Below are positions 8,273 through 49,434 of a stretch of 56,233 nt of DNA, in pieces (positions within the stretch are counted from its first letter, which is position 1; every line of letters begins with the position of its first letter). This DNA is from Prorocentrum cordatum (taxonomy: Eukaryota): NCBI GenBank assembly GCA_963575745.1, contig CAUYUJ010000101.1, forward strand, positions 62,001-118,233. Reading direction: 5' to 3'. The position numbers were made by a program, and so were the translations under genes. Below the pieces are notes generated by a model that worked only from the letters and a program-made list of their open reading frames with translations, did not search any database and was not told the DNA's origin.

Positions 8273-8289
8273 TCTCGGGAAAAGGCGCT

Positions 8290-8401
8290 TCAGGGCACGG
8301 CGTCGAAGTCGTCCACCTGCAGCCAGAGCCGGAAGAACAGCCGCGGCAGGGCGGGGTCGTCCTCGAAGGCCGTCCTCGCATGCAGCCAGCGGTAGTTGTC
8401 G
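8290..8401 (-). CDS. dioxygenase exon 11 (distal His, 2OG-binding Arg, stop)
   Basis: DNYRWLHARTAFEDDPALPRLFFRLWLQVDDFDAVP* read directly from the reverse complement; it is not in the supplied ORF track. Confidence 0.9.
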
Positions 8402-11400
8402 ATCGGCCCCAAGACTCGTCGGAAGACTCGGCTCAAAAGGCCTGGGGATCTTGAGGCTCCTTTGTCTGCTGGATACGAGACGAGCCAAGAAACGGTTGCA
8501 TTTGAAAGCCGTTGTCTTCCTCACCACGCGTGTGGAATAGAGATGCCACGCCGAAAGAGAAGAAGAGAAGGATCAGGGACCCGTAGATCAGGAATCCAGG
8601 GTCTGGAAGCCCAGCCGAGGCTTGGCCATGGATGTCACCGCGGCCCTCATCGAATGAAGAGTCATCCAAGGTCTGAGAAGCATCCTGGTCACATTCCTTG
8701 CCGAACGTCCCGACCACATCTTCGGGGAGCCCCGGGCGCGCCCGTCATCCAGCAGCCGCACCTCGTCGAGGGCCCCCTGGATCGTTACGGCCGTCCCAGA
8801 CGGCCCTCTCGGGCCCGTTCTGCGGCCGAAGAGCCTTAACCTCCAGCGTCCACGACTGAGCATGGCGCGACCCCCAATAGGAGTACGTGCTCGTTTTGTT
8901 TTGTTGGTTGATGAAGGCGTGGAACGCAATGGAATGAGATGCCGTGTGATACAAAACGCTGCATAATTTGGCACCCCAAGCATAGCATTGTACCACGTAG
9001 CACATCAAGTCATAGCAGCCCTGCACAGCACCGCACTGCTTAACGTAGAAATGCATGCCACTGCATCGCATAGCGTGGCACCGCATACCAAGGCATGCCA
9101 TGATACGGAATGTCAAGGACTTGCGCAGCATTTCATGGGAACACGCTGCACTGCAAAGCTCAGCACGTTGTAAGCCATACGACTCCTTAACATCGCACGG
9201 CATAGCAGTGCATGGCCAGACATGATAAAGCATACCAATGCATAGCGTAGCACGTCGAACCATGAGAAATAAGTGTAGTGTGCAGAGAGGGAGAGACCGA
9301 AAAAGCACTGACATGTTTACATCAAAAAAACGCTGTGCATCACACCTCAAGAGGAGAAAACAAACAAACAAACAAACAAACAAACAAACAAACAAACAAA
9401 CAAAACGTGGGCGTCCCTGCTCGTATTCCTCTCTCTCTCTCTCTCTCTGCCCAGAGGGGCACCCCTGCTGCCCCTCTGCGGCCCCCTCCTTCTGCCGCCC
9501 TCCTCCCCTGGCCCAGGGGCCGAACGGAACACTGGCCGTCGGCGCGCTTGCTCCAGTCGAGGACGACCTGGAGCTTGGACGGCGCTGGGGGCTCTATGCA
9601 CGGGAGGAGTGCGGACAGCCGCGACCACACAGCCGCGCGGCACAGAAAGAGGCAGAGCCCGCTCGCGGCGGGTCTTCGTGCTCTGCTGGCGGCGGCGGGC
9701 CGTACAGAAGGCCACTCGGATGGCACGGCGTGGCACGGCCTGGCATGGAGTGGCACGACGTGTCAGGGCACAGCATCGGCTAGCACAGCGGCGCACGGCA
9801 CTAGCACTGCGCCGCACGGCCTGCAGTCCGAGCACCCCCCAGCGACCCCTGGGCGATACCCAGAGACGGTCCCCGAGCATCCCGAGCGATTCACCAAGCG
9901 ATCCCCGAGCGACCTCCGAATAGGCCCTGAGTGATTCAAGCCGCCATTAAAGAAGGAGGGGCCCCTCAGGCGCGACCTGTTGCTTGTTGGTGTTTTTCCG
10001 GTGAGAGGGGGGGGCCTCCAGAAGCCCATTTCTGGACTCCCCCGCGGGAAAAGTAAATGACCCGATGCGGGACATGCACGCGAAAGATCACGCCGAGAGC
10101 TCCGGAGCGGCACCTCCCAAAAACGCCGAAGAAGTCGGAGGTCCGGGCCAGCCAGGTGTGCTTCGAAGACCACATGCCGTGTCCGGGTATTGCCAGAGGC
10201 GTCCCTGGCCCAAGGCTCCGGATTTCCCAGGAGGCCCCCAGGGCCACCAGAGCACCCCTCGCGAGGCCCAGGTGGCCGCAGGCGCTCCAAAGCGGAGCGA
10301 AAGGCTGGGGACACCCTGGGCGAGGGACAACTCCCCAGACGTGCGATGCCATGGCTTCTTCCACACGCGGCCCCTGGAAGTCCCCACCCCTTCCCCGGGG
10401 CCCTCTCTCCGTCCCGAGTCCTCTTGGACGGCCCTGGGTCCCAGTAGAGGCCCCCAGAGGCCGACAACGACGAAGAGCCTCCGTCCGGAATGGCCCACGA
10501 CGCGTCCTGGAGGACGCCTTGGGCCCGGGGGAGGAGGAGGAGGAGGAGGAGGAGGAGGAGGAGGAGGAGGAGGAGGAGGGAGGAGGAGGAGGAGGAGGGA
10601 GGAGGAGGAGGAGGAGGAGAGGAGGAGGAGGAGGAGGAGGAGGAGGAGGGAGGAGAGGAGGAGGAGGAGGAGGGCCCGCCTCGTGCACCCCCTGGGCCGC
10701 CGCGGGAGGGGTGGCACGCCGCGGCCGGCCATTTGGAGGCCGCCGGCGCCCTTGGGGCGGAGCGGGGTCGGCGCCCTTCGCCTCTCGCCGCCACGCGAGG
10801 AGCGACCCCTCCCCCGCCTCCTCCTCCCTCCTCCTCCTCCTCCTCCTCCTCCTCCTCCTCCTCCTTCCGCCTCCTCCTCCTCCTCCTCCTCCTCCTCCTC
10901 CTCCTCCTCCTCCTCCAGGACAAGAGCGCCCTTTCGTGCGGTGCGCGGCGCTCGTTGTGCGGCATCGTCGAGGGGCCTCGTCTCGCCATCCCTCGGGCGT
11001 CCATTCCCAGGTGCGTGCTTCGGCTTCGTGCGCGTGCTTCTTCGCAGGATGGCCCCAAATTCTCCTCGACGGCCCGTCGCCGAGAAACGTGCGCACGGCC
11101 GAACGATGCCAAGTGGTCTGCCACGTCGCGCCCCTGTCCGTGTCGAATCCAGGGGGTCGCGGAGGGGGGGGGGGGGGGGGGACAAACCCGAGCGAGCAAG
11201 CCGCTGGTATATCGCACCGCACCGCACTCGGCGACCGGGGGGCCCCAGCTGGCCCGCACCACGGGTCCCTCTGGCGAAGGGCCACCTCTCACGCACGGCC
11301 GAGTCTTGGGGGTCATCAGGTAGGCCTCGCCAGCTCCCAGCTCCCAGTGCTGCACGACCGCGGGGTCGCTGCAGACCTCGCCCAGCGCCTCCAGCGAGGC

Positions 11401-12860
11401 TGCCACCTCTGAATGGGGCCCACGGACACACAAGCAGACAGACGCAAAACCAAGGATCCCCCACATTCTCCACGTTTCCTGAACACTTCTCTTTTGTCCA
11501 TCTTTTCCAGGGAATCCTGGGAATCGACGAGTAGTTGTGTCTGTGTGTGTTTCCCCTCCTGAACCTCCGCCTCCCGCGGGGTGCCCGCGTAGGCGGCCCC
11601 GATGGTCTCCTCCATGTTCTTCGCGTACTGCACGCAGGCCCTGCCGCGGCCGTCGTGGAAGACCAGGGGCCGCTCCTCCTCGCCCGTCGGCGGCTGCCGC
11701 CAGTCTGGGTGGTACTCCACCTTGGGAAGAAAAAGAGCATGAATAGATTCGGCTACACACCAGAGTCGCTTTAGGAGGCAACTACTAGGAGGTCGTCGTC
11801 GGAAGAATTACGGAGGAATTAACCACACTGGGGGGCTGCTACACCGGATTAGGCCGCGGACTAAGTGGGGTTAGGCCGAACTAAGCGGGACTAAGCTGGA
11901 TTAAGCGGGATCAAGCCAGATTACGCCGGATTTAGGACTAGGGCAAAATTAGAATTCGACCTCCCAGAAGTTGCATCCGAGAGTGACCCTCGGCAAGAGT
12001 GACCTTTGGTGCGCGGCCCAAGGGCGGGACTCTTGGGGACACCACCAGGCGCGCCAGCCGCTGCCATCGCATCACTTTCAGCGATCGGGAGGCCACATTG
12101 GGCCCGCACCAAAACTCACTCCGGCGAAAGGTCACTCTTACGTACACGGCTGGACGGAGGACATAGAAAACATCCCTCAAGAACAACCTGAAACCCTCCC
12201 CCAGCCCAAACTGGAGAACACTCGAGGGTGCCCTCCCACATGATGCACACTAATACCCAACAGACACGAAGACCAATAGGCCACCCTGCCCAAACCGGCC
12301 TCGATTTGGACGCCCGACATGGGTACGGAAAAAAAGGGGTACAATGCCCAACAACAAATGTTGTCCCAAACCGACAGCGGCCGCTGTTCGGCAGGCGGCC
12401 TTCTGTCTCAAGTGGACACAGGCCGCGGCTGCGCGGACAGCGAGCCCTCTTCAAAATGAACAGGAACTGCTGTTGGGCATTGTACCCACTCTTTCCGTAC
12501 CCACTTCGGGCGTGCAGACTCGAGCTTACACTTCGGCCCGGCCGTAGCCGACAGAAACTGGCAGAGCTCCGCGCGGATTCTCCTTGGGATTGGCGCTGCC
12601 CCCGCCCTGCCCGCGGCGCCTCGGGCGCCGCCCCTGGCGCGCCAGCTGCGCGGCCAGGGAGGGGCGGGTGCAGTGCCGGCACGAGAAACCGGCGCGGAGC
12701 TCCGAAAGTCCATGCTCAGGTCGTCGTATATGATGATGGTGGTGATGATGGTGCTGATGGTGCTGATGGTGATGATGAAATGAACATCGTCATCATCACC
12801 GTCGTCATCAGCATCATGATCATCAGCATCATCATCATCGTCATCATCTTCGTCGTCGTT

Positions 12861-12905
<45 letters not shown>

Positions 12906-12906
12906 G

Positions 12907-12959
<53 letters not shown>

Positions 12960-13068
12960 GCAGCAGCAGCATCATCATCACCATCGCCATCAGCAACAGC
13001 ATCGTCATCGTCATCATCAAAAGCAGCATCATCACCATCGTCATCATCCTCATCATCATCATCATCAG

Positions 13069-13103
<35 letters not shown>

Positions 13104-13266
13104 GCATCAGCATCAGCATCAGCATCATCATAATCAGCAGCATCATCATAATCAGCATCACCATCGTCATCAGCAGCATCACCATCGTCATCAGCAGCAG
13201 CATCATCATAAGCATCATCATCATCATCGTCATCATGATCATCATCATCATCATCATCATCAGCAG

Positions 13267-13297
<31 letters not shown>

Positions 13298-13326
13298 TTC
13301 ATCTTCATCATCATCATCATCCTCAA

Positions 13327-13367
<41 letters not shown>

Positions 13368-14314
13368 GCATCAGCATCAGCAGCAGCAGCACCATCATCA
13401 TCACCACCATCAAGATCATCATCACCATCATCATCATCAGCATCATTATCATTCTCATCAACATCATCATCATCATCATCATCGTCATCATCATCGGCAG
13501 CAGCACCACCACCATCGTCATCACCACCATCCAGATCACTATCTTCTTCATTCTCAGAATCATCATCATCAGCATCATGGTCATCAGCAAAAGCATCATC
13601 CTCGTAATCCTCATCATTGTCACCATCATCATCCGCACCCTCATCATCCTGATCCACATCTTCATCCCCATCCTCATCATCATCCTCATCTTCATCCCCA
13701 TCCTCATCGTCATCCTCACTATCGTCCTCATCATTATCAGCATCCGAATCATAACAACAATACCAATAATACGAATACTAATCATAACACTAAGAAAAAA
13801 AGATAGTCGCCATCAGCATCACCATCATCAGAATCGTCATCATTCACATCATCATCCTCATCCTCATACTCATCGTCGTCATCATCATAATCCTGGTCTG
13901 GCTCCTCACCCTCATCCTCACCCTCATCCTCATCATCATCATCATCATCATCATCATCAGCAGCATCATCATTATCGTCACCATCAACAGCAGCATCATC
14001 CTTTTCATCAGCATCATCATCAGCATCAGTATAGTCGTCATCGTCATCCTCATCATCATCCTCAGCACCAATTGTCATCCTCATCAGCATCATCATCATC
14101 ACCACCCATATCATCATCATCAGCATCATCATCATTCTCATCCCCATCCTCATCCTGATCGTCTTGATCCTCATCTTCATCATCATCTTCATCCTCATCA
14201 TCTTCGTCCTCGTCCCAAGCCACATCCTCGTCCTCATCATCATCATCATCACCACCCTCGGCCTCACCCCATCCTTATCGTCATCCAAATGATCGTCCTC
14301 ATCCTCATCACCAT

Positions 14315-14345
<31 letters not shown>

Positions 14346-15553
14346 AGCATATCATCATCAGCATCATCAGCATCAGCATCAGCATCAGCATCCTCATCCT
14401 CATCGTCATCTTCATCCTGCTCCTCCCCCTCATCATCAGCATCACCTTCCCTATGGTCAACATCAGGTCCCCCAGAATCATCATACTGATCGTAAGCATC
14501 ATCATCATCCTCATCCCCATTGCTCATCGTCATCCTCACCATCATCATCATCATCATCATCATCATCGTCGTCGTCGTCATCGTCATCATCATCATCATC
14601 ATGCTCATCCTCGTTGTCATCCCAATTCTCATCTTCATACTCATCCTCATGATGATCCTCATCCTGGTCCGTGCCGTCATCATCATCACCATCAGCACCA
14701 TCATCGTCGGCATCGCCATCCCCATCATCTTCCGAGCACCATTACTACCCACCAGTACCAGCCAGCATCGTGACCATCATCGCCATATCACCATTACCAG
14801 CCAGCATCATCAGCATCATCCTCATCCTCAGGATCACAATCCTCATATCCATCCACGCTAGCATCATCAGCATCATCAACGCGATCAGCATCATCCTCAA
14901 CACCAGCATCATCACAAGCATTATCAGCAGCCTCCTCATCATCATCACAAGCAGCATCATCATAATCATCATCATAATCATCATCATCATCGTCATCATC
15001 AGCATCATCATCATCATCATTAACGTTCTCATCCCCATCCTCATCCTCATCCCCGTGATGAGCCTTATCCATATGTGTTATCATCGGCATCATCAGCATC
15101 ATCAGCATCATCAGCAGCAGACTCAACATCATCGTCGTCATCGTCATCCCCGTCGTGTTCTTCACCACCAGTCACCATCATCATACCACACCATCAGCAT
15201 CATCACCAGCAGCATCAGAATCATCATCATCGTCATCGCCATCAGCATTATCATCATTATGCTCAGTCTCATTTCCCATTATCATCAGCATCCTCGTCTT
15301 CATCCTCATCCATATCAGCATCAGCATCATCATCCTCATCGAACTCGTCCTGATCCCCAGCATCATCCACGTCCGCATGCTCATCCTCCTCATCATCCCC
15401 ATCCTTACCCTGACCATCATCATCCTGACCATCATCATCATCAGCAGCATCATCACCAGTTTATGAATCAGCACCATCATCAGCATCATCATCGTCATCC
15501 GCACCATCATCCTCATCATAATCCTGTAGCATCTGCATCAACCGCAGCAGCAC

Positions 15554-15585
<32 letters not shown>

Positions 15586-15592
15586 ACATCAA

Positions 15593-15628
<36 letters not shown>

Positions 15629-16380
15629 GATCATCATCATCATCATCATCAGTATCATCATCATCATCATCATCATCATCACCATCAAGATTATCATCAC
15701 CATCAGCATCATCAGCAGCAACATTATCTCATTCACCATCATCATCGTCATCATCATCAGCATCATCCTCGTCCTCATCTCCATCATCATCATCAACAGC
15801 ATCATCATCGCAAACTGCAGCACCATGCTTTAGCATCAGCATCAGCATCGGCATCAGCCGCAGCAGCACCATCAGCACCATCACCACCAATCAGATCAGC
15901 ATCATCATCATCACCACCATCATCATCAGCAGCCTCATAATCTCCTTCATCATCATCATCGTCATTTATCATCGTCCTCATCATCATCGTCCTCATCATC
16001 ATCGTCCTCATCATCAGCAGCAGCATCATCATCGCCAGCAGCTGCAGCAGCAACAGCAGCAGCATCATCATCACCATCACCATCATCATCTTCACCTTCA
16101 TCATCATCATCATCATCAGCATCATCATCATCATTATCATCATCATCATATTCATCCTCATCCTAATCATCATCGGCATCCTAATCCCATCCTCATCCTC
16201 GTCATCATGATCATCCTAATCCGCATCCTCATCGCCATGATCATCCACATGCTCCTCATCATCAGCATCATCATCAGCCTCATCCTCATCCTCATCATCC
16301 TCATCATCACCATCCTCAGCATCGTATCATCATCACCACCACCATCATCATCCTCAGCACCAGCATCATCATCAGCGTCG

Positions 16381-16413
<33 letters not shown>

Positions 16414-18300
16414 GCATCCTCATCCTCTTCATCATCATCCTCATCATCCTCGGCCTCGTCCTCATCCACATCTCGATGATCATCCTCATGCTCGTCCTCA
16501 TCCTCATCCTCATCCTCCTCGTCCTCATCCCCACCATCATCAGCATCATGAACATCATGCCCATCATCCGCATCAGCATCCACATCTTCATCATCTCCTC
16601 CATCATCATTATCAAGATCATCATGATGATCGTCATCATCATCATCATCAGCATCATCATCATCCGCATCCTCATCCTCCTCATCATCATCCTTATCATC
16701 CTCGGCCTCGTCCTCATCCACATCCCGACGATCATCCTCATGCTCGTCCTCATCCACATCCTCATCCTTCTCGTCCTCATCCCCACCATCATCAGCATCA
16801 AGATCAGCATGACCATCATCAGCATCAGCATCAACATCTTCATCATCTCCTTCATCATCAGTATCAAGATCATCATCACGATCATCATCATCATCACCAT
16901 CATCATCAGCATCATCATCATCATCCTCATCATCATCCTCACCCGCATCATCCGCATCAGCATCGGCATCAGCCGCAGCAGCACCATCATCACCATCACC
17001 ACCAATCAGAACATCATCAGCATCAGCACCATCATCATCATCAGCAGCATCATCTCCTGCATCATCATCAGAATCAGCATCATCGTCATCACCATCCTAA
17101 TCATCATCCTCATCGTCCTCGTCCTCATCATCATCGTCCTGACCATCAGCAGCAGAATCAACAGCAGCAGATGCAGCAGCAACAGCAGCAGCATCATCAT
17201 CATCACCATCAGCATCATCTACTCACCATCTGTACCTAATCCTCATCACCATCATCATCCTCCTCCTCATCCTAATCTGCATCCTCGTCGTAATCACATC
17301 GTCATCCTCATCACCATGATTATCCTCATCCGCATCCATATCCTCATTCTCATCCTCATCATTATCAGCCTCCATCAGCATCATCATCATGATCATCATC
17401 AGCCTCGTCCTCATCCTCATCATCATCACCCTCATCATTATCATCATCCTCGATATCATATCATCGTCACCACCACCACCAGCATCATCATCCTCATCGT
17501 CATCATCATCATCCGCATCCTCATCCTCATCATCACCATCATCATCATCATCCGCGTCCTCGTCCTCGTCCTCATCCTCATCCCCATGATCATCCTCATG
17601 CTCGTCCACATCCTCATCGTCATCCTCATCCTGACCTTCATCATCATCCTCATCATCATCATCAGCATCATCAGCATCCTGATCATCATGATCATCATCA
17701 TCATCAGCAGCATCATCATCATCATCTCCGTCATCTTCATCGTCATATCCTTCATCATCAGCATCAGCATCAGCATCAGTTTCAGCATCATCATCATCAT
17801 CAGCAGCATCATCATCCTCATCAGCATCAGCATCAGCATCAGCATCAGCATCAGCATCAGCATCAGCATCAGCCGCAGCAGCAACATCATCACCATCACC
17901 ACCAATCAGATGATGATGATGATGATCATCATCATCATCAGCATCATCATCATAATCATCATCCCTTTCATCATGATCATCATCATCCTATCCTTCATCC
18001 TCATCATCCTCATCATCCTAGGAGTCATCTCCATCATCATCAGCAGCATCATCGGCAGCAGCAACAGCAGCAGCCTTATCATCATCACCATCATCATCAG
18101 CATCATCCTCTTCTTCAACATCATCATCATCCTCATCATCATCATCATCCACATCCTGACCCCATACTCATCCTCACTATCATGATCATCCCCATCCTCA
18201 TCGTCATCATCATGATCATCCTCATCCTCCTCATTATCAGCAGCATTATCCTCATCATCATCCTCAGCATCATATCATCATCACAACCACCAGCATAACT

Positions 18301-18360
<60 letters not shown>

Positions 18361-18849
18361 GTCATCGTCATCGTCATCGTCATCATCGTCATCCGCATCC
18401 TGATCCTCATCATCATCCTCATCATCCTCGACCTCGTCCTCGTCCTCATGCCCATGATCATCCTCATGCTCGGCCTCATCCTAAGATTCGTCCTCATCCT
18501 CATCCTCATCCTCATCCTCATCCTCATCACCACCATCTCATCATCATCAGCAGCATCATCATCTTCATCACCTCCTTCATCATCATCATCATCATCATCA
18601 GCATCAGCATCAGCATCATCATCATCATCATCATCATCAGCAGCATCATCATCACCTTCTTCATCATCATCATCTTCACCTCCTGCAGCATCATGACGTA
18701 ATCCCCCATCATGTGCATCATCATCATCAGAATCAGCATCATCATCATCGTCATCATCGTCGTCATCATCATCATAATCATCGTCATCGCCATCGTCATC
18801 ATCGCAAGCATCATCGTCATCATCATCATCATCGTCATCAGAATCATCC

Positions 18850-18883
<34 letters not shown>

Positions 18884-18920
18884 CATCCTCATCATCATCC
18901 TCATCATCCTCATCATCATC

Positions 18921-18952
<32 letters not shown>

Positions 18953-21900
18953 CATCGTCATCATCGTCACCCTCATCCTCATCATCCTCATCTCTTCCTC
19001 GAACCTTGGCGGCGTCGTACCTGAAGCCCCGCCGCAGGGCGGCGAGGAGCTCGGGCCGGTCCCGCCGCAGCAGGGCGTGGATGTCCTCGGCGCTGGCGAG
19101 CTTGCTGACGCCCCCGCCCCGCGCCGGGCGTACGCAGAGCATGGCCCGGGGCGCTGCCAGAGGTGGCCCTTCACGTGGGAGGGAGACTGCAGGATCGACT
19201 TGCCCCCAAACTGGACTGTGTTCGTCGATCGACGGACATTCTACGTCTTCTGCGGGGGCCCTGGGACACACAAACAAATCGACACGAATCACCAGATTCC
19301 CCCTATTTCCCCATATGTTCTGGCTTTTCGTCTTCCCCCCCACCTTTCATATACTTTCACTGAAGAATCGACGATTCAGTGTGTCTGTGAGTTTTTGTTC
19401 CCCTCCCGATCTTTCTCGTCCTGGCGACGAGAAGAGAAGCTTTGGCGCGAGGTGGCACAGCAGCCGTAATTACGCGGCGGCTCACGCGGGCCGCCGGAGC
19501 GGCACGCTCCCTCGGAGGCGAGGGCGCTGCCTCGAGCGACTCGGCGCGGGCAGCCGACGCGCCAGATGCCAGCGCAGAAGAATCCGTTTCTGCTGCGTCC
19601 TCCTCCTCCCCCTCCTCCTCCTGCTCCTCCTCCTCCTCCTCCTCCTCCTCCTCTTACACCTCCTCCTCCTCCTCCTCCTCCTCCTCCTCCCCTCCTCCTC
19701 CTCCTCCTCCTCCTCCTCCTCCTCCTCCTCCTCTGCTCAGGTGGCCCCCGCTCTTCCCCTGAGATCTGGGCATGGCACTCTGTTCACACCGGGCGTCTTC
19801 GCCAGGTCTCGGGCCCCGGGGCCACACACACACCACGGATGGATGCGTCCCAGGAGACATGCCGCCTACAGCTGGGCAGCAGGGCTCCGGTCGAGCTCTG
19901 GTCCGCGACGTCGGGTCTCAGGGGTCGGCTGCACCCAGGAGGGAGGCCCAGCCGACACCAGCTCTTCCAGAGGGGCCCACGTGTCCTCCAGAGCCACCCC
20001 TGACGGGGGCCCAGAGGAGCCCCCCTGGCGGGCCCAGAGCGGCGCGAGAAGGCGGCGGGGGCACCTGAGGGGCAGCTTCAGGGTTAGATCGGGCGTGTCC
20101 TCCTACAGGCGGGTTTGGGACGAAAAATGGAAAATGGATCGAAAATAATCGAAAAATCGTCCCCAGAAGATGTGCTTTCTTAACCGTTTTTGCATGTTCC
20201 TCCTGTAGAGGGACGTGCCCGACGTAACTTCAGGGGCTGGCTGGCCCAGAGAGGGAGCATCGAGCTGGGACCGACGACGGATCGACGACGGAGATCGGCG
20301 AGGGGCCCCCGCCGAGAGAGAGGTAGAGGGAGGGGAGAGGAGGGGAGGGGAGGGCGGGAGGGGAGGGGAGGGAGGGAGGAGGGGAGGGAAGGGGAGGGGA
20401 GGGGGGGGGAGGGGAGGGAGGGGAGGGGGGGAGGGAAGGGAAGAGGGGACCGGCACGACCGTGACCGACATGCATCCATGCATAAGGATATCACGGGTCA
20501 TGCTGCTCCGACGGAACAACACGTTCCAGCGTGGGATCGCCGCCATCCCCGCACCAGGGTCCTCCAGGAAGCAAGGCTGGACATCCGGACACACGACCCC
20601 AGCACCGGTCGACCCATCCTTGTCGACTGGGCGGTGACCTGCGTACACTCCACCTACGCCCCACGCAGGCACGCCCGAGCCGAACGAGATGGACTCGCAG
20701 CAGCCCAGATTGTCGACGACAAACACGGCCGGTACCCCCCCCGGGAGGGCCTAGACCTCGTCCCGATGGTCTTCGAGACCGGGGGGCGGCCGTCCGACGA
20801 GGCCGTAAGCTTCGTTCGGAGCTACGGCGCCTCTCTTGAGGATGCCGACCTGTCCGAGCTCTTAAGCCGGATCTGGCGGGACATCTCACGCACCCTACAA
20901 CAAGGGAATGCGGAGATGATCCTGAGCGCCCTGGGGAGATTGGCGCCGACCACCACCACCACCACGCGTGACCAACCACCAGCACGACCACTACCAGCCC
21001 GGCCGACTCTCAGGACCACCGCCGCCAGTACGGCCACCACAGCGGCCAGCTGACTGACTACCAGCATCACCACCACCAGCACGACCACCACAGCAGTACC
21101 ACAACTACCAGCCACCACGACCACCACCATCACGACCACCACGACCACCACCAGCACGACCACCACGACCACCACGATCACCACCAACACGACCACCACG
21201 ACCACGCCGACGACCGCCGCCGCCGCCCCCCCGTCCCCCTCTCCTTTCTCCCCTTCCCTTGCTGGGCCGCCCCTGCCGCTGCGCCTTTTGCGCGACCGTT
21301 GCGTCCTCCTTCCTCCTCCCCCTGCTCCCCCCCCCCTATGCCCCTTGCGCGCTGGCTGGCCGGCACAGAGGGCGCGGGCAGCCTTCAGCCCGCGTCGCGA
21401 CCCGGGGCCTGCCTCAAGACGAGGCTGGCCCGGGGCGCACTGGACCGTGGACGGTCCCCCTCTGGGCGGCCCCCAGAGTGCTAGCGGGGGCGCCATCCCC
21501 ACGACTGGCGGGAGGGGGGAGGGAGGGAGGGGAGAGGAGGGGAGGGGAGGGGAGGGAGGGGAGGGAGGCGGAGGGGAGGGAGGGGAGGGGGAGGGAGGAG
21601 GGGAGGGAGGGAGGGAGGAGGGAGGGAGGGAGGGAGGGAAGAGGGGAGGGGGGGGGGAGGGGGGGGGGGGGAGGGGAGGGGAGGGGAGGGGAGGGGGGGG
21701 GGAGGGGGAGGGGAGAGAGGAGGGGAGGGGAGGGGGGCAGGGGGGAGGGAGGGAGGGGAGGGAGGGAGGGAGGGGAGGGTGGGTCGACCCAAACTCCTCC
21801 CCGAGCCTACTCGCCCCTAACGTTAGGTCGGGCATATCCTCGGACAGGCGGATTTCGGAAGAAGAATCAGAAATGGTCAAAAATATTCGAGAGCAGGCAA

Positions 21901-24900
21901 AATATACTCCAAAAATCGTCCCCCGACTATTTTTGACTATAACTGAATACTCCTCCTATAGAGGGACATGTCCGACTGAACCCCAGGTCCCCGTCGGCGA
22001 TGTCACTGGCCGATTGGGGGTCGACCCATCCCCCCCTGAACCTACTCCCCCCTAACGTTGCCCCTGGGCACCCCTGCAGGGCGACGAGGTCTACTTACAC
22101 ATATCCGCTGCCTGCTCCCTGGCCAGGCCCATCCCGAAGCCAACGGCTGTGTCTACGCCCCCCTGGCCAAGAGAGGAGGGCGTGGCGTCTGCATCCGCTG
22201 CCGGGTTCAGGATGGGCGCGGCCAGGGAGCAGCGCATGTGTACACAGACAGCCTCCCGGACATGCGACGTCCGAAAACTTCTCCAGGACGCCGTCCCGAC
22301 CCTCTCCCCGGGACTGGCTCTTCGTCCTGACTCGTTTTTTTTTTTTTCGCGGTCCCGCGGCCCGGCGAGGGCCACCCGGGGCCGAAAACGGCCAGAGGCT
22401 GCCCGTCCTGTTTTTTTTTGTCTTCACGACGCGCGCGCGCAGGCCCGGGCTCGCCCTGCCCCGGGCCAGGGCCACCCCCGGGGAGCGCCCGCGGCGCCGG
22501 CCACACGCCGGAGCGGCCCCGCGAGCCCGAGGCGCCCCACGGCGCGCGCGGCTTCGGGGCGGCGGGGAGGGGGGGGGGGCGCCGACCCCGGGCGCGCAGG
22601 CCGCGGCCGTCGCGTGTCGCGCTCCGGGGGGGGGAGGGGGGGGGGGGCCCCCGCGGGCCCGCACAGGACCCGGGCATCCAAGGTCTGGGCTTGTGGATGC
22701 CACGACCGTGGGCGCTCTCGCACAATCCGACACTTGAGTTAAAGAGGTGCTTCACGTGCAGAAAGCACGTTCTGAAAAAAAAACAAGCATGTGCTGGCAT
22801 GTCTTAAAGCACATGGGAAACATCCCTCAGACCTCTTCGACCTCTGGAAATGGTTTGGCAGCATGCTTCCTCGCCATTGATCGACTTCCACAAGTCTGGG
22901 TATTCTTCCAGGCGCGGCCGCCGGCAAGATGGGGTCGGGGGCTCTGGCCGCAAGTCTTGGCGGCGCGACCCTCTGTGCGCAGCGTCGGCTCTCGGGCAGA
23001 GCGTCGCAGGATCTTGCCGTCTGGGGAGGTCCGTGCGGAGAAGGGCCACTCCTGCAACCCTCGTGGCGGAAGACTCGAGGGATCGACTCCTCTTCCCCCC
23101 TCGCCTCCGTCCAAAGTTGGCTCTCGACGGGGCCGCTGCGGTAGCGCGATGTTCGGTGCAGCGTGGGGCGGGGGAGGGGGGGGGGGCGTCGCTGCGAGAA
23201 GGTGCGCCGGCGGCCAGGCAGTCCCAAGAAGACTCCGGCGCGACCCGTAGAGTTCCCTGGAGCCCATGCCCACGCTCCTCAACCGCTCCTTCTGAGCCAC
23301 AGATGTTGCCACCTCTTGGAAGCGCATCTTCTACTGCCGCTGCCCTCCGCCGGCTTTCCACCGGCTTCCGCCGGCGAAGGCGGCCTGGCTTTTACTCCCG
23401 CGGGCTCCAGCTGCCCTTCCGCCGCTCTCCCGCGGAAGGGGCTCGCCTTCGATACCCTCGAAGGCGAGCCCCTGCCTGGAGCAGCCCACGCGTTGCCCGG
23501 GGTGGCGAGCGCGGCGAACAAAAAATCGCAACGGTGTCTTGGTCAATGCTCTGGAGGTCTGGGGTGGCGACTCTCGGAGAAGTAGGGGGACGAAGAATGA
23601 CACAAACATATGAAAACTCGGAGGTCCGCGCGGATTTCTCGGATTTGCGCTTGACCCCCCGCCTTGGCGCGCGGAGCGCGCCAGGGGCGGCGCCGGAGGC
23701 GCCGCTAGGGGGGTCCAGAGCCGATCCGAGGAATCCGCGCGGACCTCCGAGTCTTTATGTTCATGTCGGTGCTCGCTCCCGGACGAGGGGCCACGCCTGC
23801 GTGTGGCCGCGACTGGCCAGCACGTCGCAGACCCCTGCGCCGCGCGCTGCCGGGATGGACGAGTCCACGTGCAGGCGCTGCTCCTGCGCGTTGCGGTAGC
23901 CCCGCCTCTTCGTGTGCCTCGCGGCGAGCACCTCGGGCGCCCGCGCGACCTCCACGCGGGCGCAGACCTCCCAGGCAGGAGCTGGGTCGCATCGCAGACG
24001 TGCTCGCGTCCGGGGGGGGGCCTCACCGGGCCCTGGGGCCGGCAAGAGACGACTCGGGACGCAACACCGGCCCGGGGGAAGGGGTCGGGACGTCCGGGGA
24101 CCGCGTCTTGAAAAAATCAAGGCATCGCACGTCTGGGACTACAGCCAAGTCGGGCGTGTCCCCCTACAGGGGGATGTTCGACGAAGGGTAAAAAGTGCCC
24201 CAAAAATATTCCACACTGGTCAAAAAGTACTCCCAAACATAATCCCTGGACTATTTTGTTCACTATTCGTGAATATTCCTCCTGTAGAGGGACGGGCCCG
24301 ACTTAAGACTGCAAGATGGCATCGGGCCGGAGATGGATCGCCGCGCCCACGAGTCGCCCCAGATCGCATCGAAGCCGGATCGCCGCGCCCGGCTCCGGCC
24401 GGCCGCGGCCGCGGCCTGCGAGCCGAACCGACTCGAACCTGGAGGAAAAAAAAGGGGCCCTGGGACACACAGATAAGTACACGCAAAGAACAGGATTCCC
24501 CACATGTCCCCATATGTTCTGGGTTTTTGTCTTCCCCCCCACTTCCCATGTTTTCCCATCTTTTCCTGGGAATCGACGATTCATTGTGTCTGTGTGTCTT
24601 TTCCCATCCTGAAAAAGAGCATCATAAACATAAACTGTTGGGTCCGCGCGGACGTCGCTTGGATCTGGGCTGGAACCCCCTTCCTGACGCGCGGAGCACG
24701 CCAGGGGCGGCGCCGGAGACGCCGCAAGGGGGCCCCCCCAGCGCAAATCCAGCCTGCGCGGAGCGCCAAAAGTCTATATGTTTATGCCGTTTTTTCGCCT
24801 TCAGGAATCGCATCGGAATCGCGGCCCTGGCCAGCAAAGCGAAGCGCATCGCAGCTCGGATCGTAGGGTGGCCCCGCGAGCCTCCCCGAGGTCCACCGAC

Positions 24901-27070
24901 TGCGTGACGGGGCGGCCCAGGTGCGAGCACAGCCCCAGAAAGGCCCTCTTGATGGGCAAATGTTCCACCACCACCACCACCACCACCACATGCAGGTCGG
25001 GGGAGAAGGGAGGATGAGGAGGTCCTCCTCCTCCTCCTCCTCCTCCTCCTCCTCCTCCTCCTCCTCCTCCTCCTCCTCCTCCTCCTCCTCCTCCTCCTAA
25101 ACATGGCAATGGTGGTGGAAGATGGGCCCGCCACCTCTGGCAGTCCCCCTCGCCGAGCTCGTCGGCCCACGCCGCCGGGAAGCGCAGCAGCACGGCCCCG
25201 CAGCCGCCCGCCAGCTCCCGCGCGGCCTCGCCGGAGCCCCCTCGAGCTGTGAGAAAACCACGGCGGGAGGGCGCTCGCTATCTTCGGCCTCGGGGGGCCC
25301 TCGCTGGCCCTCGAGATCGTCCGAACACGACTCGGGAAGGAAGACCGGTCCCTGGCCTCCTCCTCCTCCTCCTCCTCCTCCTCCTCCTCCTCCTCCTCCT
25401 CCTCCTCCTCCTCCTCGGAGGGCTTTCGCTATCTTCGGCCTCCGGTGCCCCCATGCCGGCCCTCGGGATCGTCGAGAAACGACTCGGGAGGAGAGACCGG
25501 TCCTGGGGAAAAAAAGGGCCGAGCCCTCCCGGGGGTCGACGCTGTGAAAAGAAATCATGGCGCCGGGGGTCTGGGCTGGAGGGGAAGAGAACGGTGGCCA
25601 GGACCAAGACTGAACGCGAAAACGTCCCAGGCATCCTACGCATTGAGAAAGAAAACAAAACAACAACAAAAACAAAAAAAGACGGGGGGGGTCGCTGTCT
25701 TCGGCCTCTGGGGTTAGGTCGGGCGTGTCCCCCTACAGGCGGATTTTGAACGGAAAATAAGAAATAGTCAAAAAATGCACCAAAATAGTCAAAAAGACTA
25801 AGAACAAATCGTCACCTGACTATCTTTTTATCATTTTTAAATATTCGGGGACGCGCCCGACTTAACTCTGGGGGCCCTTACCAGGCCCGGGATCCCAAAA
25901 AACATGCTCGGGATGACAAGGCAGATCCGGGGAAGAGGTCGAGACTTCTGGGGGCCCCGCGTTGCAAAAAACACGACGTCAGTTCTCTGGGTTCGGTACC
26001 GACCTTGGTCACCGCCCATCTCGGTCGCCGTCGATTCGCGGATTCTCCTCTCGAGAACCGGCGACGGCCGGCATGGACCACGACCCAGATCGGCGTCGAC
26101 AAGATCCCGCGACATCCTCCTTGAGATCCGACGTTGCGAGAAATTACCACGTCGCGAAAAGTCACAACCAGAGCCCTAAACCTCATCTTTCTGCTGCATT
26201 CATTCGAGCTGGATCGATATGCGATGGTCCCAAGGCCTGGAACAAGGTAATTTGTTGTCACATCATGCCGGAGACAAAACAATCCCATCGCGATGGGAAG
26301 AACTCGATGGCAATTTAAACGGTCGCAGCTGGCACCAGACAGTGCGCCCAAGAGCATGTCACCAAGAGCCGAGGAGGAGGGAGGGAAAGGAGGAGGAGTT
26401 GGAGGAGAGAGAAACATCACCCAAAACAAATCCAGATCGCCCGTTGTGGACGGACCGCGAGGCCAGGGTCTCGGGGTCGCCGGCGCGCAGGCGCTGCGTG
26501 CTTCTTGCCGCGGTGCCTCCCGCGCGCACGCCCCCAGGCGCGGGCCCAGCGGGAAGCTCTCCGGCCCCAGCCGCTCCAGCGGCACCCCCCGGCTGCAGAG
26601 GGACAAACAGCGGCACAAACGTCACTTCTCGGAGGTCCGCGCCTATGTCTTGGCTCGGCGCGGGGCCCCCCACTCCTCCCTGGCGCACGGAGCGCGCCCA
26701 GAGCGGGCCAGAGGCGTCGCCAGGCAGGCCCCGCGCCGACACAAGAAGTACGAGAGAGGCCTGCGATCGGAGTCGAGCTGCGGGGGGAAGTGAGACGGGG
26801 CAGGCCTCCTCCTCCTGCTCCTCCTCCTGCTCCTCCTCCTCCTCCTCCTCCTCCTCCTCCTCCTCCTCCCTCCTCCTCCTCCTCCTCCTCCTCCTCCTCC
26901 TCCTCCTCCTCCTCCTCCTCCTCCTCCTCCTCCTTCCCCCCGCCGCATCATCCTCCTCCGAGCAGGAGTCAGTCGGCGGCGGCGAACGCAGGGGGGAAAT
27001 GAGAGGGGGCTGGCCTTCTCACTTTACCCTGAGCTCGCCGCCGACTGACTCCTGCTCGGAGGAGGAGGAG

Positions 27071-41499: not shown

Positions 41500-42100
41500 G
41501 CTGACTATGGTGGGCTCCGACGTGATCTCCCACATCTGGCCGAGCAGTGCCAGAGCCTGCTGCCACGACTTGATTTTCTCGCACGCGCTGGCCCCAGCGA
41601 TGTAGCTCACTACGGCTGTGCACCAAAGCCCGCTGTCACTGCTCGCGCGCAATGGTCCGAGCACTGCAGCTGAATGCGTCGAGCCCCCATGTTGTCTCCC
41701 ACATGTCACTGAACAGCTCAAGAGCCCGGAGGCACTGTTCGCCTGTCTCGCACGCACTGGCACCAGCGCTGTATATCGTCCTGTCAGGATTCAGTTTCGC
41801 CTCCCTCAGATCGCTGATCAGCGCAAGAGCATGCTGCCACTGGTCGCCTCTCCCGCACGCTATGATCCCAGCGGCATAGATGACGACGTTAGGCTGCAGC
41901 CTCGCCTCCCGCATCTCGCTCAGCAGGGACAGAGCCCTCTGCCACTGCTCGCCCTTTTCGCACGCGCTGGTGCAGGCGCTGTAACTGAAGACATCGGGCT
42001 CTAGCTTCGCCTCCCGCATCTTGCTCAGCAGTGCCAGAGCCCACTGCCACTGCTCGCTCTCGCACGCGCTCATCCCAGCATTGTAGCTGACTGGGGCTGA
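41500..42100 (-). pseudogene. PPR cassette B (about 5-6 35-aa repeats, decaying toward the 3' end)
   Basis: SYNAGMSACESEQWQWALALLSKMREAKLEPDVFSYSACTSACEKGEQWQRALSLL..; frameshift near 41640. Confidence 0.85.
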
Positions 42101-42149
42101 ACCGTGGACGACCGTCCGCTACATAAACGTCGGCCTCACGAGCTTATAC

Positions 42150-42660
<511 letters not shown>

Positions 42661-42949
42661 CTTTCTTCTTGCTGCATGGGGTTAGCGGCGAATGATAAGT
42701 TCGGCCCAGTTGCTCGTTTCCTTCTCCTTTCAAACCTTGGTGGGGACAGGATGTGGATGTGGTGGTTTGTGCAACGTGGTAGCGAAGCGTAATTTACAAT
42801 GGTTTACGTGCTCTGTTGCTCGGCAGGGGACCTCCTACGCCGAAGAGAGACAATCCAGGAGACGTCTGAGGGCCCAGGAAGTCCCGAAGCGGAGCCGCCC
42901 TGGCAGCGCCGCGGTAGCGAGTGGCCCTTCTGGCACGCGCGCTGCCTGG

Positions 42950-43290
42950 CATTGTAGTATAGATATGGTCGGGCTTCAACTTTGCCTCCCACATCTCGCT
43001 GAGCAGCGCCAGAGCCCGCTGCCACTGCTTGCCTTTCTCGCACGCGCTGATCCCAGCGTTGTAGTTGATGTGGTCGGGCTCCAGCTTCGCCTCCCGCATC
43101 TCGCCGAGCAGCGCCAGAGCCCACTGCCACTGCCAGACTTTCTCGCACGCGCTCATCCCAGCGCTGTAGCTGATGATATTGGCTTCCAGTTTCACCTGCC
43201 ACATCTCGAAGAGCAGAGCCAAAGCCCGCTCCCACCGAGCGCCCTTCTCGCACGCGCTGATCCCAGCGTTGTAGCTGACAAGGGCTGACA
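42950..43290 (-). pseudogene. PPR cassette C (3 repeats)
   Basis: SYNAGISACEKGARWERALALLFEMWQVKLEANII repeated at a 105-nt period. Confidence 0.85.
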
Positions 43291-43520
43291 CGCGCACGAA
43301 AACGTCACGAGCTGGCATGAGTTTGTGGACAAGCTTCCGAAAGACTGACATGATGACGTGGGGCTCGAGCTTCGCATTCAGAACATGCTACTGCGATGCT
43401 GCCTGCTGCCGCTCTGGCGTGCTGCTGGCAATGCTTGCCGCTGCTGCTGGTGCTGGCTGCCGGATGCTGCTGATGGTCAACTCTGCACGGTGCGTGCTGC
43501 TGCCCGCTGCCTGCTGCTAC

Positions 43521-49288: not shown

Positions 49289-49434
49289 ATGACTTCCAGT
49301 GGTCAGAGTGCCCCTGCTGCTGCTCAATGCTTCAGGGTGCACTGTTTGCTTGATGATCCCGACGGCGTCCACAGCAGCGCTAGCAGTATCAGCGGCAGCA
49401 GATCCGGGGGCACAGGCAGTAGCACCAGCAGCAG

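What the first reader, a model, noticed from the sequence alone, without database searches (positions are those of the whole stretch)
8402..11314. Intron 10 appears to lack an AG acceptor and is closed by a perfect terminal stem
Seen: exon 10 ends TAC CTG AT|GA and exon 11 begins ..GGGGCCGAT|C GAC AAC. Only this join yields LGAGEAYLIDNYRWLHARTAF, matching the family pattern LxPGDxxxxDNxxxLHGRxxF. The 2.9-kb intron is flanked by a GAT direct repeat, and no sliding position gives AG (the options include GA..AT and GA..CC). Its ends are complementary: CCCCAAGACTCG at 8407-8418 is the exact reverse complement of 11300-11311, placing the two splice sites side by side. The nearest AG (8415-8416) would destroy the GEAYL strand. 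Known: non-canonical introns with direct and inverted repeats are described in Amoebophrya, and structure-defined introns in euglenids, whereas core dinoflagellate acceptors are generally regarded as AG. Inference: splicing here may be guided by RNA structure rather than by the acceptor dinucleotide.
Basis: partly seen in the sequence, partly recalled or inferred. Interest (0 to 1): 0.85.

Follow-up and report, generated by a model that had tools for sequence, protein, structure and literature searches.

The report
Non-AG, hairpin-closed dinoflagellate intron

Summary
On the minus strand, a 2913-nt intron (11314..8402) separates exon 10 (11406..11315) from exon 11 (8401..8293). It has a GAT direct repeat and a perfect 12-nt terminal inverted repeat. 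None of its four possible registers ends in AG.

Contigs from 4 of 4 sequencing runs (4 studies; one on record as polyA RNA-seq) join 8401 to 11315 with no extra letters. The same contigs also remove the GT..AG intron 9. Orthologues from Biecheleria and Symbiodinium read YL(I/V)DNYRW across the join.

The window encodes, letter for letter, an NCBI Prorocentrum cordatum protein. Its model uses the nearest AG (8416-8415) and another AG upstream. As a result, 131 residues are out of frame.

Best reading: a real non-AG intron of the introner-element type, with a direct repeat and an inverted repeat. This type is known with non-canonical ends in Amoebophrya. I found no report of it in core dinoflagellates, where annotation pipelines allow only AG acceptors.

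That the stem guides splicing is plausible but untested. Three alternatives remain open: a transcribed copy without the insert, a base error at 8402, and a non-spliceosomal pathway. A second candidate non-AG intron (23817..19146) lies in the same gene.

The parts
11565..11720 (-). Exon 9 (VEYHPDWRQPP...TPREAE)
   Evidence: tblastn to P0120 and P0134; contig pieces 11563-11725 in 4 of 4 runs
11407..11564 (-). Intron 9, canonical GT..AG, 158 nt. It serves as a positive control.
   Evidence: Joint 11404->11563 (CT..AC on the + strand, cut +2) in 4 of 4 runs; sequence
11315..11406 (-). Exon 10 (VAASLEALGEVCSDPAVVQHWELGAGEAYL + AT)
8402..11314 (-). Intron 10, 2913 nt, in register 0 (GA..AT). Registers -1 to -3 give TG..GA, AT..CG and GA..CC.
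   Evidence: Joint 8401->11315 in 4 of 4 runs; registers listed
11315..11317 (-). 5' copy of the GAT direct repeat (possible target-site duplication)
   Evidence: slide left 3
8402..8404 (-). 3' copy of the GAT direct repeat
11300..11311 (-). 5' arm of the terminal inverted repeat, CCCCAAGACTCG. It starts 3 nt into the intron.
8407..8418 (-). 3' arm, CGAGTCTTGGGG, ending 5 nt before the junction. It contains the nearest AG (8416-8415), which is the acceptor used by the public gene model.
8423..8432 (-). Second partial copy of the 3' arm, GCCGAGTCTT. It can form an alternative 10-nt stem with 11307-11298, and it marks a local 12-nt duplication in the 3' arm.
   Evidence: exact IR of 10; -16.2 kcal/mol
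10530..10916 (.). Internal (GGA)n at 10530-10673 and (CCT)n at 10808-10916. Together they form a long internal inverted repeat inside the intron.
8293..8401 (-). Exon 11 (C + DNYRWLHARTAFEDDPALPRLFFRLWLQVDDFDAVP), stop codon at 8292-8290
19146..23817 (-). Second candidate non-AG intron, 4.67 kb. Its boundary repeat is GGCCA, and its registers are GG..CG, GC..GG, CC..GG, CA..GC, AG..CC and GT..CA. It was not checked against RNA.
   Evidence: Orthologues read CDVLAMLCVRP without a gap; sequence; the public model is shifted by 8 nt here

Best explanation
This is a real intron of a TauD/TfdA-like dioxygenase gene of Prorocentrum cordatum, a core dinoflagellate. It is removed from the transcript precisely at a 3-nt direct repeat although it has no AG acceptor. 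Its build is that of an introner element, meaning an intron that looks like a non-autonomous DNA transposon. It has a short direct repeat (a possible target-site duplication) next to terminal inverted repeats (12 nt perfect, or 14 nt once a local duplication is discounted), and it encodes no transposase.

Inferred mechanism: the intron starts with GA in two of its four registers, and GA is a donor that dinoflagellate spliceosomes are known to accept. The terminal helix brings the two junctions within a few nucleotides of each other and sequesters the nearest AG. A relaxed spliceosome then completes the second step at the repeat instead of at an AG.

Shown here: the join in RNA, the absence of any AG register, the repeats, and the fit to orthologues. 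Inferred only: the transposon origin, the role of the helix, and which machinery does the cutting.
For: The join 8401->11315 appears in one contig each of 4 of 4 runs from 4 studies. The contigs are 1301, 1289, 1360 and 648 nt long. There are 0 mismatches in the exon 9, 10 and 11 pieces, except 2 in the exon 11 piece of X15. No letters lie between the two sides. The same contigs remove intron 9 at GT..AG.

X15 is on record as polyA RNA-seq. It has zero depth over 8684-10135 inside the intron, so its contig is not genomic DNA.

Orthologues read straight across the join. The Biecheleria transcriptome protein P0120 has GEIYLIDNYRWMHARTEF. Symbiodinium P0134 and P0135 have GEAYLVDNYRWLHARTAF. Residue 298 of P0120 is shared by the two tblastn matches on either side of the intron.

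Symbiodinium model P0119 is identical to P0134 up to GEAYLV and then diverges to a stop. I read this as read-through into an intron at the same codon. That argues for an old intron position rather than a recent disruption.

The 12-nt inverted repeat and 3-nt direct repeat meet the published introner-element definition: inverted repeat 8-20 nt and direct repeat 3-5 nt within 30 nt of the ends. An exact terminal repeat this long was seen in 14 of 20000 random spans.

The Roy preprint reports GA donors as commoner among recently gained dinoflagellate introns.

The public P. cordatum model P0137 uses the same GA donor with the AG at 8416-8415. It carries 10 extra nt that no contig shows.
Against: Three of the four runs (X1, X3, X10) have no library type on record, so only one run is certified RNA. 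The runs may come from the same species or strain as the assembly.

No DNA reads were laid. I therefore could not confirm the base at 8402 or exclude a second, uninterrupted gene copy.

The inverted-repeat motif has no further copy in the 56-kb window. No whole genome was available. A transposon family is therefore not shown.

The stem closes a 2.9-kb loop, and duplex energy alone is not exceptional for such G+C-rich ends: 31 of 500 mononucleotide shuffles reach it.

I read of no spliceosomal precedent for a CC, CG, GA or AT 3' end in core dinoflagellates. One 2025 genome paper calls AG acceptors 'nearly universal'.
Confidence: 0.55

Rival explanations
1. The intron is removed from RNA as above, but not by the spliceosome. 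An AG-independent, structure-dependent pathway recognises the helix formed by the intron ends and cuts at its base. Such a pathway has been suspected for euglenid nonconventional introns and for Amoebophrya introner elements.
For: No register has an AG. The junctions sit at the foot of a 12-bp stem extended by a 4-bp outer helix across a 3x3 internal loop. Farhat et al. conclude that Amoebophrya introner elements need a mechanism distinct from ordinary splicing (passages). Abstracts of euglenid papers describe nonconventional introns as having ends brought together by structure, with removal by unknown means.
Against: No such machinery is known in any organism. The Euglena signature N3-CDG...CHG-N5-6|R is absent in all four registers (ends printed, rule). 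GA at the 5' end fits an ordinary dinoflagellate donor. According to a review, the comparable non-canonical introns of Fritillaria are spliced by the U2 spliceosome.
Confidence: 0.18
2. The event is at DNA level, not RNA level. The window's copy carries a 2.9-kb transposon insertion with a GAT target-site duplication and is dead. The transcripts come from an uninterrupted allele, paralogue or retrocopy whose sequence equals the empty site.
For: A direct repeat next to terminal inverted repeats is the signature of a cut-and-paste insertion, and the empty site would read exactly CTGATCGAC. Contigs cannot tell splicing from an empty site. Three runs are of unknown type. Recycled cDNA copies are described in dinoflagellates (passage).
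Against: The exons flanking the insert match the transcripts at 373 of 373 positions in X1, X3 and X10. The same codon appears to carry an intron in Symbiodinium (P0119 against P0134). The same contigs also lack the canonical intron 9, so an uninterrupted source would have to be a processed copy, which itself requires that this splice once took place. A 152-nt contig of X1 lies inside the intron at 100% identity and lower depth (3.9 against 19.7), as pre-mRNA would. The interior is a patchwork of microsatellites and old dispersed repeats.
Confidence: 0.12
3. The intron is an ordinary GA..AG intron. The coding-strand T at 8402 is an assembly error, or a variant of the assembled copy, standing in for G.
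For: A single substitution (...CCGAT to ...CCGAG) would give GA..AG in register 0 with the same mRNA. No read or contig laid covers 8402-8492, so the base is unverified.
Against: This would need an error at exactly this base, and one that by chance lengthens the direct repeat from GA to GAT. A second intron of the same gene (23817..19146) also lacks an AG in every register that keeps the orthologous protein. The public model is shifted at both places, as expected if transcripts fitted no canonical junction at either.
Confidence: 0.07
4. The join is a cDNA artefact. Reverse transcriptase jumped across the hairpin between the two GAT repeats, and the RNA in the cell keeps the 2.9 kb.
For: From my own knowledge (no paper read here), template switching is known to create false junctions with non-canonical ends at short direct repeats near stable structure.
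Against: The joined form is the only form seen in 4 of 4 runs from 4 studies. No contig crosses an exon-intron border. A 3-nt repeat over 2.9 kb is a poor substrate for a jump. Exon 11 stays 77-89% identical to orthologues and in frame only after exactly this removal, which implies that the join is made in vivo.
Confidence: 0.02

Closest known systems
Non-canonical introner elements (IEs) of Amoebophrya strains A25 and A120 (Farhat et al. 2021, PMC7789003; passages read)
   Same: A 3-5-nt direct repeat overlaps the exon/intron borders. An 8-20-nt inverted repeat links the intron ends and can form a hairpin that joins the exon borders. The terminal dinucleotides are variable and not GT-AG. No transposase lies inside. 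The exact cut is ambiguous within the repeat.
   Different: The host here is a core dinoflagellate, not a syndinean parasite. That study analysed only introns of 40-1000 bp, and this one is 2913 nt. No family of similar copies could be shown. The other five introns of this gene that I examined are canonical (four) or unverified (one).
Introner elements and introner-like elements annotated in core dinoflagellates (Dougan et al. 2023 for P. cordatum, PMC10666404; Roy et al. preprint 10.1101/2020.10.14.339549 for Polarella and Symbiodinium)
   Same: The direct-plus-inverted-repeat pattern at intron ends is the same; it is reported for 2.4% of P. cordatum introns (supplement passage). The direct repeat is read as a target-site duplication beginning G-H that supplies the 5' splice site, and GA donors are typical of young introns.
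   Different: All those introns come from gene models that allow only G[T/C/A]..AG. In the Roy models, the 3' AG comes from the end of the element or from the duplication. Here the element ends ...GGGGCC, the repeat is GAT, and no AG is used.
Identical repeated intron boundary (IRIB) of dinoflagellate introns (Mendez et al. 2015, PMC5032977; passages)
   Same: A 2-9-nt sequence is repeated at both borders and kept once in the mRNA. Introns 8 and 9 and two upstream introns of this gene show it.
   Different: According to that paper, the IRIB always contains GG and usually AGG. GAT contains neither.
Nonconventional introns of euglenids (abstracts only)
   Same: The borders are non-canonical, and secondary structure brings the ends together.
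   Different: The Euglena code (CAG/CTG pairing 3 nt and 5-6 nt from the borders, with a purine starting the exon) is absent. The lineage is unrelated.
MITE-derived non-canonical introns of the tunicate Fritillaria borealis (known to me only through the review PMC11282704)
   Same: These are introns with terminal inverted repeats, target-site duplications and non-GT-AG ends. They are removed efficiently in vivo, reportedly by an adapted U2 spliceosome.
   Different: The prevailing ends there are AG-AC and AG-AT. The organism is an animal. No sequence relation is implied.

Membership tests
Introner element, as defined by Farhat 2021 and Dougan 2023 | Inverted repeat of 8-20 nt between the two intron ends, within 30 nt of each end | tested here: met
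   A 12-nt perfect repeat lies 3 nt from the 5' end and 5 nt from the 3' end.
Introner element, as defined by Farhat 2021 and Dougan 2023 | Direct repeat of 3-5 nt at the exon/intron borders, kept once in the mRNA | tested here: met
   GAT stands at 11317-11315 and 8404-8402. The joint has 3 ambiguous letters.
Introner element, as defined by Farhat 2021 and Dougan 2023 | Belongs to a family of repeated introns that spread like a transposon | tested here: inconclusive
   Only the two arms themselves match the motif in 56 kb. No genome was held. Interior pieces resemble other dispersed repeats at 68-82% identity.
Non-canonical intron (NCI), Amoebophrya type | RNA-supported junction whose terminal dinucleotides are not GT-AG | tested here: met
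   The joint appears in 4 of 4 runs. The four registers are GA..AT, TG..GA, AT..CG and GA..CC.
Canonical dinoflagellate spliceosomal intron, G[T/C/A]..AG(G) | Donor GT, GC or GA | tested here: met
   GA is the donor in registers 0 and -3.
Canonical dinoflagellate spliceosomal intron, G[T/C/A]..AG(G) | Acceptor AG, usually followed by G | tested here: not met
   No register ends in AG. The nearest AG is 10-13 nt upstream and is not used in any of the 4 runs.
Roy et al. introner-like elements of Polarella and Symbiodinium | The 3' splice site AG is supplied by the end of the element or by the target-site duplication | tested here: not met
   The element ends GGGGCC and the duplication is GAT. 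The models are described.
Euglenid nonconventional intron | Signature 5'-N3-CDG ... CH'G-N5-6 | R-exon | tested here: not met
   The intron starts GACCCC, UGACCC, AUGACC or GAUGAC, so none has CDG at positions 4-6. The rule is from the abstract read.
U12-type AT-AC intron | An AT..AC (or GT..AG) intron with the 5' consensus ATATCCTT | tested here: not met
   The AT register reads ATGACC...CG. The consensus is quoted. The minor spliceosome is reported absent in alveolates.
Cut-and-paste DNA transposon (autonomous) | Encodes a transposase | tested here: not met
   I scanned 9 intron ORFs of 50 aa or more that passed my complexity filter. All 9 had 0 Pfam families at E<=0.01.
TauD/TfdA dioxygenase (host gene) | PF02668 domain with the C-terminal DNxxxxHxR motif | tested here: met
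   The exon 11 ORF matches the TauD profile at positions 243-267 of 267, with E 0.035, below the cut-off. Orthologue P0120, 81% identical in one exon, carries PF02668. DNYRWLHAR is present.

The most novel reading that the evidence does not exclude
Core dinoflagellates, not only the parasite Amoebophrya, have an AG-independent way of removing introns whose ends are paired by terminal repeats. A hidden class of such introns exists in Prorocentrum cordatum and perhaps other large dinoflagellate genomes. It is systematically mis-annotated because every pipeline forces an AG acceptor. Symbiodinium appears to carry an ordinary intron at the same codon, so an old canonical intron may here have been replaced by, or converted into, a structure-defined one.
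Probability: 0.3. Interest if true: 0.8.

Novelty: new member of a known kind. Interest (0 to 1): 0.62.

Why it matters
If such introns are real, three things follow.

1. Gene models of dinoflagellate genomes built with AG-only splice rules contain errors of the kind seen here, where 131 of 313 residues of the public protein are out of frame. That affects proteomics, orthology and dark-gene counts.

2. Tolerance for non-AG, repeat-bounded introns would predate or extend beyond Amoebophrya. This bears on how transposon-derived introns colonise genes and how the spliceosome adapts to them.

3. This locus is a concrete, expressed test case with a canonical neighbour intron as an internal control. 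It can be used to ask whether a terminal helix can replace the acceptor dinucleotide.

Tried and rejected

**Searches that led nowhere**
- My first homologue search used a wrongly bounded exon, 19259-19005, of which only about 19145-19005 is exon. It found nothing.
- Pfam scans of 104 minus-strand ORFs and 78 further ORFs did not locate the small upstream exons. They gave only PPR hits elsewhere and low-complexity noise.
- A scan of metagenome contigs for a 24-nt piece of exon 11 found 0 matches.
- Rfam found nothing in the whole window.

**Weak or uninformative results**
- Duplex energy of the intron ends against shuffles was not distinctive: 31 of 500 shuffles reached it. I rely instead on the exact repeat and its position.
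- In one search, most of the intron has no cover. The short matches at 8493-8537, 8617-8654, 10250-10282 and 11152-11182 carry 1-4 mismatches in 31-45 nt and belong to repeats elsewhere. I draw nothing from them.

**Mechanisms considered and rejected**
- Nested canonical splicing (GTGAGA at 11292 to the AG at 8416-8415): it would leave extra nucleotides that no contig shows.
- A U12-type intron, and the Euglena code: neither motif is present.
- Repair of the acceptor by RNA editing: no register is one A-to-I or C-to-U step from AG in a way that fits.
- An assembly join made by transcript scaffolding: the window holds no N.

**Not pursued or downgraded**
- Intron 9 looked by eye like one of a family of ~160-nt elements. 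BLAST found only one partial relative (24564-24613, 88% over 50 nt).
- For the second candidate intron, a canonical GT..AG alternative exists (23813..19154). It would insert four residues (TPRA) absent from all orthologues. I could not exclude it without RNA.
Full report
**1. What is in the sequence**

The feature lies on the minus strand. Read in coding direction, exon 9 (11720..11565) is followed by a 158-nt GT..AG intron (11564..11407). Exon 10 (11406..11315) ends ...GGC GAG GCC TAC CTG AT.

The next 2913 nt (11314..8402) begin GACCCCCAAGACTCGGCCG and end ...CCGACGAGTCTTGGGGCCGAT. Exon 11 (8401..8293) begins C GAC AAC TAC CGC TGG CTG CAT and runs to a TGA at 8292-8290.

GAT occurs at both borders, so the cut can be drawn in four registers: GA..AT, TG..GA, AT..CG and GA..CC. 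None ends in AG.

CCCCAAGACTCG (11311..11300) is the exact complement of CGAGTCTTGGGG (8418..8407). These are the only two matches to the motif in the window at up to one mismatch. In a control with 20000 random 2913-nt spans of this very repeat-rich window, 14 had an exact terminal inverted repeat of 12 nt or more.

**2. The gene and the organism**

An exhaustive HMMER search with one exon gave 17 proteins at E<=0.001. Among them were close orthologues:
- P0120, from a Biecheleria cincta transcriptome.
- P0119, P0134 and P0135, gene models of three Symbiodinium genomes.

tblastn of P0120 and P0134 against the window mapped eight coding exons: 27354-27238 (weak), 25229-25134, 24950-24882, 23970-23815, 19145-19005, 11720-11565, 11406-11315 and 8401-8293.

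A further search with the exon at 23970-23815 returned P0137, an NCBI 'unnamed protein product [Prorocentrum cordatum]', at 100% identity. Eight of the nine pieces of P0137 map letter for letter onto the window's minus strand. The greedy script misplaced the four-residue piece FLGP. By reading, it lies across the model's own junction, at 11318 plus 8414-8404.

PPR-repeat ORFs elsewhere in the window have their best named relatives (63-67% identity) in P. cordatum, then in Symbiodiniaceae and Polarella. The window's G+C of about 60% fits the 59.7% reported for that genome (PMC10666404, passage).

The host is thus a core dinoflagellate. The gene is a TauD/TfdA-like dioxygenase: the exon 11 ORF gives a weak Pfam match to the end of the profile, and the orthologue carries PF02668.

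**3. The join is made**

One search for sequencing runs gave only small-share holders. I laid four of them, from four studies. In each of the four, one contig (1301, 1289, 1360 and 648 nt) lies on 8282-8401, then 11315-11404, then 11563-11725. That is exon 11, exon 10 and exon 9 with both introns gone.

There are no letters between the sides, and no mismatches except two in the exon 11 piece of X15. The joint 8401->11315 skips 2913 nt with three ambiguous letters, exactly the GAT repeat. The joint over intron 9 is CT..AC on the + strand, that is GT..AG.

X15 is on record as polyA RNA-seq, and it has no depth at all over 8684-10135. The type of the other three runs is not on record. X1 also holds a 152-nt contig inside the intron (9538-9689, identical, depth 3.9 against 19.7), as unspliced RNA would give.

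No contig shows the alternative junction at the nearest AG.

**4. Orthologues agree**

P0120 reads AGEIYLIDNYRWMHARTEFEDD. P0134 and P0135 read GEAYLVDNYRWLHARTAF. The window gives GEAYL-(I)-DNYRWLHARTAFEDD only with this join. Residue I298 of P0120 is the last residue of the exon 10 match and the first of the exon 11 match.

P0119 (another Symbiodinium) is identical to P0134 up to GEAYLV and then runs into unrelated residues and stops. I read this as a model that ran into an intron at the same codon. If so, the intron position is shared between Suessiales and Prorocentrum. This is an inference from protein models, because I could not fetch those genomes.

**5. What the public annotation did**

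Its exon 11 therefore starts 10 nt too early (T|TC TTG GGG CCG ATC = FLGPI).

Upstream, it joins 23818 to 19153 (GC..AG). That is 8 nt more than the orthologues allow.

The two shifts add up to 18 nt. The model therefore returns to frame in exon 11, but residues 142-272 (131 of 313) are out-of-frame text (RPGPCSAYARRG...ELARPT) where orthologues have MLCVRPARGGGVSKLAS..., VEYHPDWRQ... and VAASLEALGEV.... P0137 carries no precomputed Pfam domain.

The genome paper states that its aligners and predictors were modified for GC and GA donors. I saw no statement that any acceptor other than AG was allowed.

**6. Anatomy of the intron**

The 12-bp stem has a predicted energy of -22.4 kcal/mol. It is extended across a 3x3 internal loop (GAC/CCG) by four pairs between the last bases of exon 10 (UGAU) and AUCG at the 3' border, giving -27.7 in all. 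The two junctions thus sit opposite each other at the foot of the helix, and the nearest AG lies inside the helix.

The 3' arm carries a local 12-nt duplication. This creates a second, mutually exclusive 10-nt pairing (AAGACTCGGC with GCCGAGTCTT at 8432-8423). Without the duplication the repeat would be 14 nt.

The interior holds no Pfam-recognisable ORF: I scanned 9 ORFs and all 9 gave 0 families. It does hold:
- Microsatellites (AAAC, CT, GGA x48, CCT x36) and short tandem repeats.
- A large internal (GGA)n/(CCT)n inverted repeat.
- Pieces 68-82% similar to other places in the window.

Nothing matched Rfam.

**7. The other introns of the gene**

| Intron | Span | Ends | Boundary repeat and notes |
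|---|---|---|---|
| Between exons at 25134 and 24945 | 25134..24946 | GT..AG | 5-nt boundary repeat; 11-nt inverted repeat. A canonical introner-type intron. |
| Next downstream | 24881..23968 | GC..AG | 5-nt repeat to the left |
| Candidate non-AG | 23817..19146 | no AG in any of six registers | GGCCA; see below |
| Intron 8 | 19004..11721 | GT..AG | CCAAG |
| Intron 9 | 11564..11407 | GT..AG | 3-nt repeat to the left |

The script drew the first intron one base off (GG..AG), and sliding it one base within its repeat gives GT..AG as listed.

The intron 23817..19146 keeps the orthologous CDVLA|MLCVRP only with a junction inside the repeat GGCCA. None of the six registers has AG: GG..CG, GC..GG, CC..GG, CA..GC, AG..CC and GT..CA, read from the sequences printed. 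It is a second candidate.

However, it lies outside the stretch I laid on reads. A GT..AG alternative (23813..19154) that inserts four residues cannot be excluded. Its terminal inverted repeat is weak (7 nt exact).

**8. Explanation**

The best-supported reading is a genuine non-AG intron of the introner-element type. The direct repeat and terminal inverted repeats are what a non-autonomous cut-and-paste transposon leaves. Removing 'one repeat plus the element' restores the coding sequence, as in the published models.

I think the spliceosome is the more likely agent, for three reasons:
- The intron starts with GA in two registers. GA donors are established in dinoflagellates, and the Roy preprint reports them enriched in young introns.
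- The neighbouring introns are ordinary.
- According to a review, the comparable Fritillaria introns are processed by the U2 spliceosome.

The helix would then help by pairing the sites and hiding the competing AG. None of this mechanism is shown here.

The rivals are:
- An AG-independent, structure-reading pathway.
- Transcripts from an uninterrupted copy.
- A wrong base at 8402.
- A reverse-transcription jump.

Each is set out with its evidence in the Rival explanations section. The second and third could be settled with DNA reads, which I could no longer lay.

**9. Comparison with what is known**

- **Amoebophrya.** Direct repeats of 3-5 nt plus inverted repeats of 8-20 nt with non-canonical ends define the introner elements of Amoebophrya A25 and A120 (PMC7789003, passages).
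- **Core dinoflagellates.** The same repeat pattern was counted in P. cordatum (2.4% of introns), Polarella and others, but on introns taken from G[T/C/A]..AG gene models (PMC10666404, passages and supplement passages). The Roy preprint (parts 1-2 of 4 read) derives the 3' AG from the element or the duplication in every class it describes.
- **Boundary repeats.** Mendez et al. (PMC5032977, passages) describe them in core dinoflagellates, always with GG and usually AGG.
- **AG acceptors.** A 2025 Amphidinium carterae paper calls them 'nearly universal' (PMC12584245, passage). A 2024 review lists 'other boundaries' only for Amoebophrya (PMC11453091, passage).
- **Literature searches.** Five full-text searches turned up no report of RNA-supported non-AG, repeat-bounded introns in a core dinoflagellate. 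The library lacks most subscription journals, including the published version of Roy et al., so this absence is provisional. Supplementary tables of PMC10666404 that list the introner elements were not seen.

**10. Verdict**

The interpretation that structure replaces the acceptor is open.

I class it as a new member of a known kind: an Amoebophrya-type non-canonical introner element in Prorocentrum cordatum. Its practical consequence is already visible in a corrupted public gene model.

Noticed in passing
window 35826-8293, minus strand (protein P0137): The public P. cordatum protein model for this gene is out of frame for residues 142-272. It uses AG acceptors at 19154 and 8415 that add 8 and 10 nt. 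It also lacks the conserved exons at 25229-25134 and 24950-24882, and instead starts with pieces at 35826-35562 and 27688-27551.
   Followed up: yes
window 19146-23817, minus strand: A second intron of the same gene has no AG in any register that keeps the orthologous CDVLAMLCVRP. Its boundary repeat GGCCA contains the palindrome GGCC, so, as with GAT|C at intron 10, the two junctions could pair with each other directly.
   Followed up: partly
window 24946-25134, minus strand: A canonical GT..AG intron of 189 nt has a 5-nt boundary repeat (AGAGG) and an 11-nt inverted repeat (TTCCACCACCA / TGGTGGTGGAA) about 16 and 23 nt from its ends. It is an introner-type intron with ordinary splice sites in the same gene.
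   Followed up: partly
window ~12700-18300 (inside the 7.3-kb intron 8): About 5.5 kb of degenerate GAT/GAC/GAG-type triplet repeats has a very strong strand skew (GC skew down to -0.65) and lower G+C (46-50%). It reads as poly-D/E, poly-H or poly-I/M/S in different frames.
   Followed up: no
window 11178-11299 and 12035-12150, minus strand: The first ~120 nt after the 5' arm of intron 10 resemble (68.5%) a stretch inside intron 8. Both copies begin GCCGTG..GTRAGAG, which looks like a consensus 5' splice site that is not used in intron 10.
   Followed up: partly
window 41639-42118, 42797-43387, 48807-49331, 53057-53458, minus strand: ORFs carry PPR repeats (Pfam E 1e-12 to 1e-20), from one or more PPR genes upstream on the same strand. 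The best named relatives are in P. cordatum.
   Followed up: partly
window 11162-11182: There is a run of about 20 G (C on the coding strand) inside intron 10. Short contigs of other runs match it with mismatches.
   Followed up: no
proteins P0119 and P0138 (Symbiodinium sp. and Durusdinium trenchii models): P0119 starts exactly at the M after the CDVLA|M junction and ends by apparent read-through at the intron 10 codon. P0138 derails after VEYHPDWRQPP. Orthologous gene models in other dinoflagellate genomes thus also break near these junctions.
   Followed up: partly
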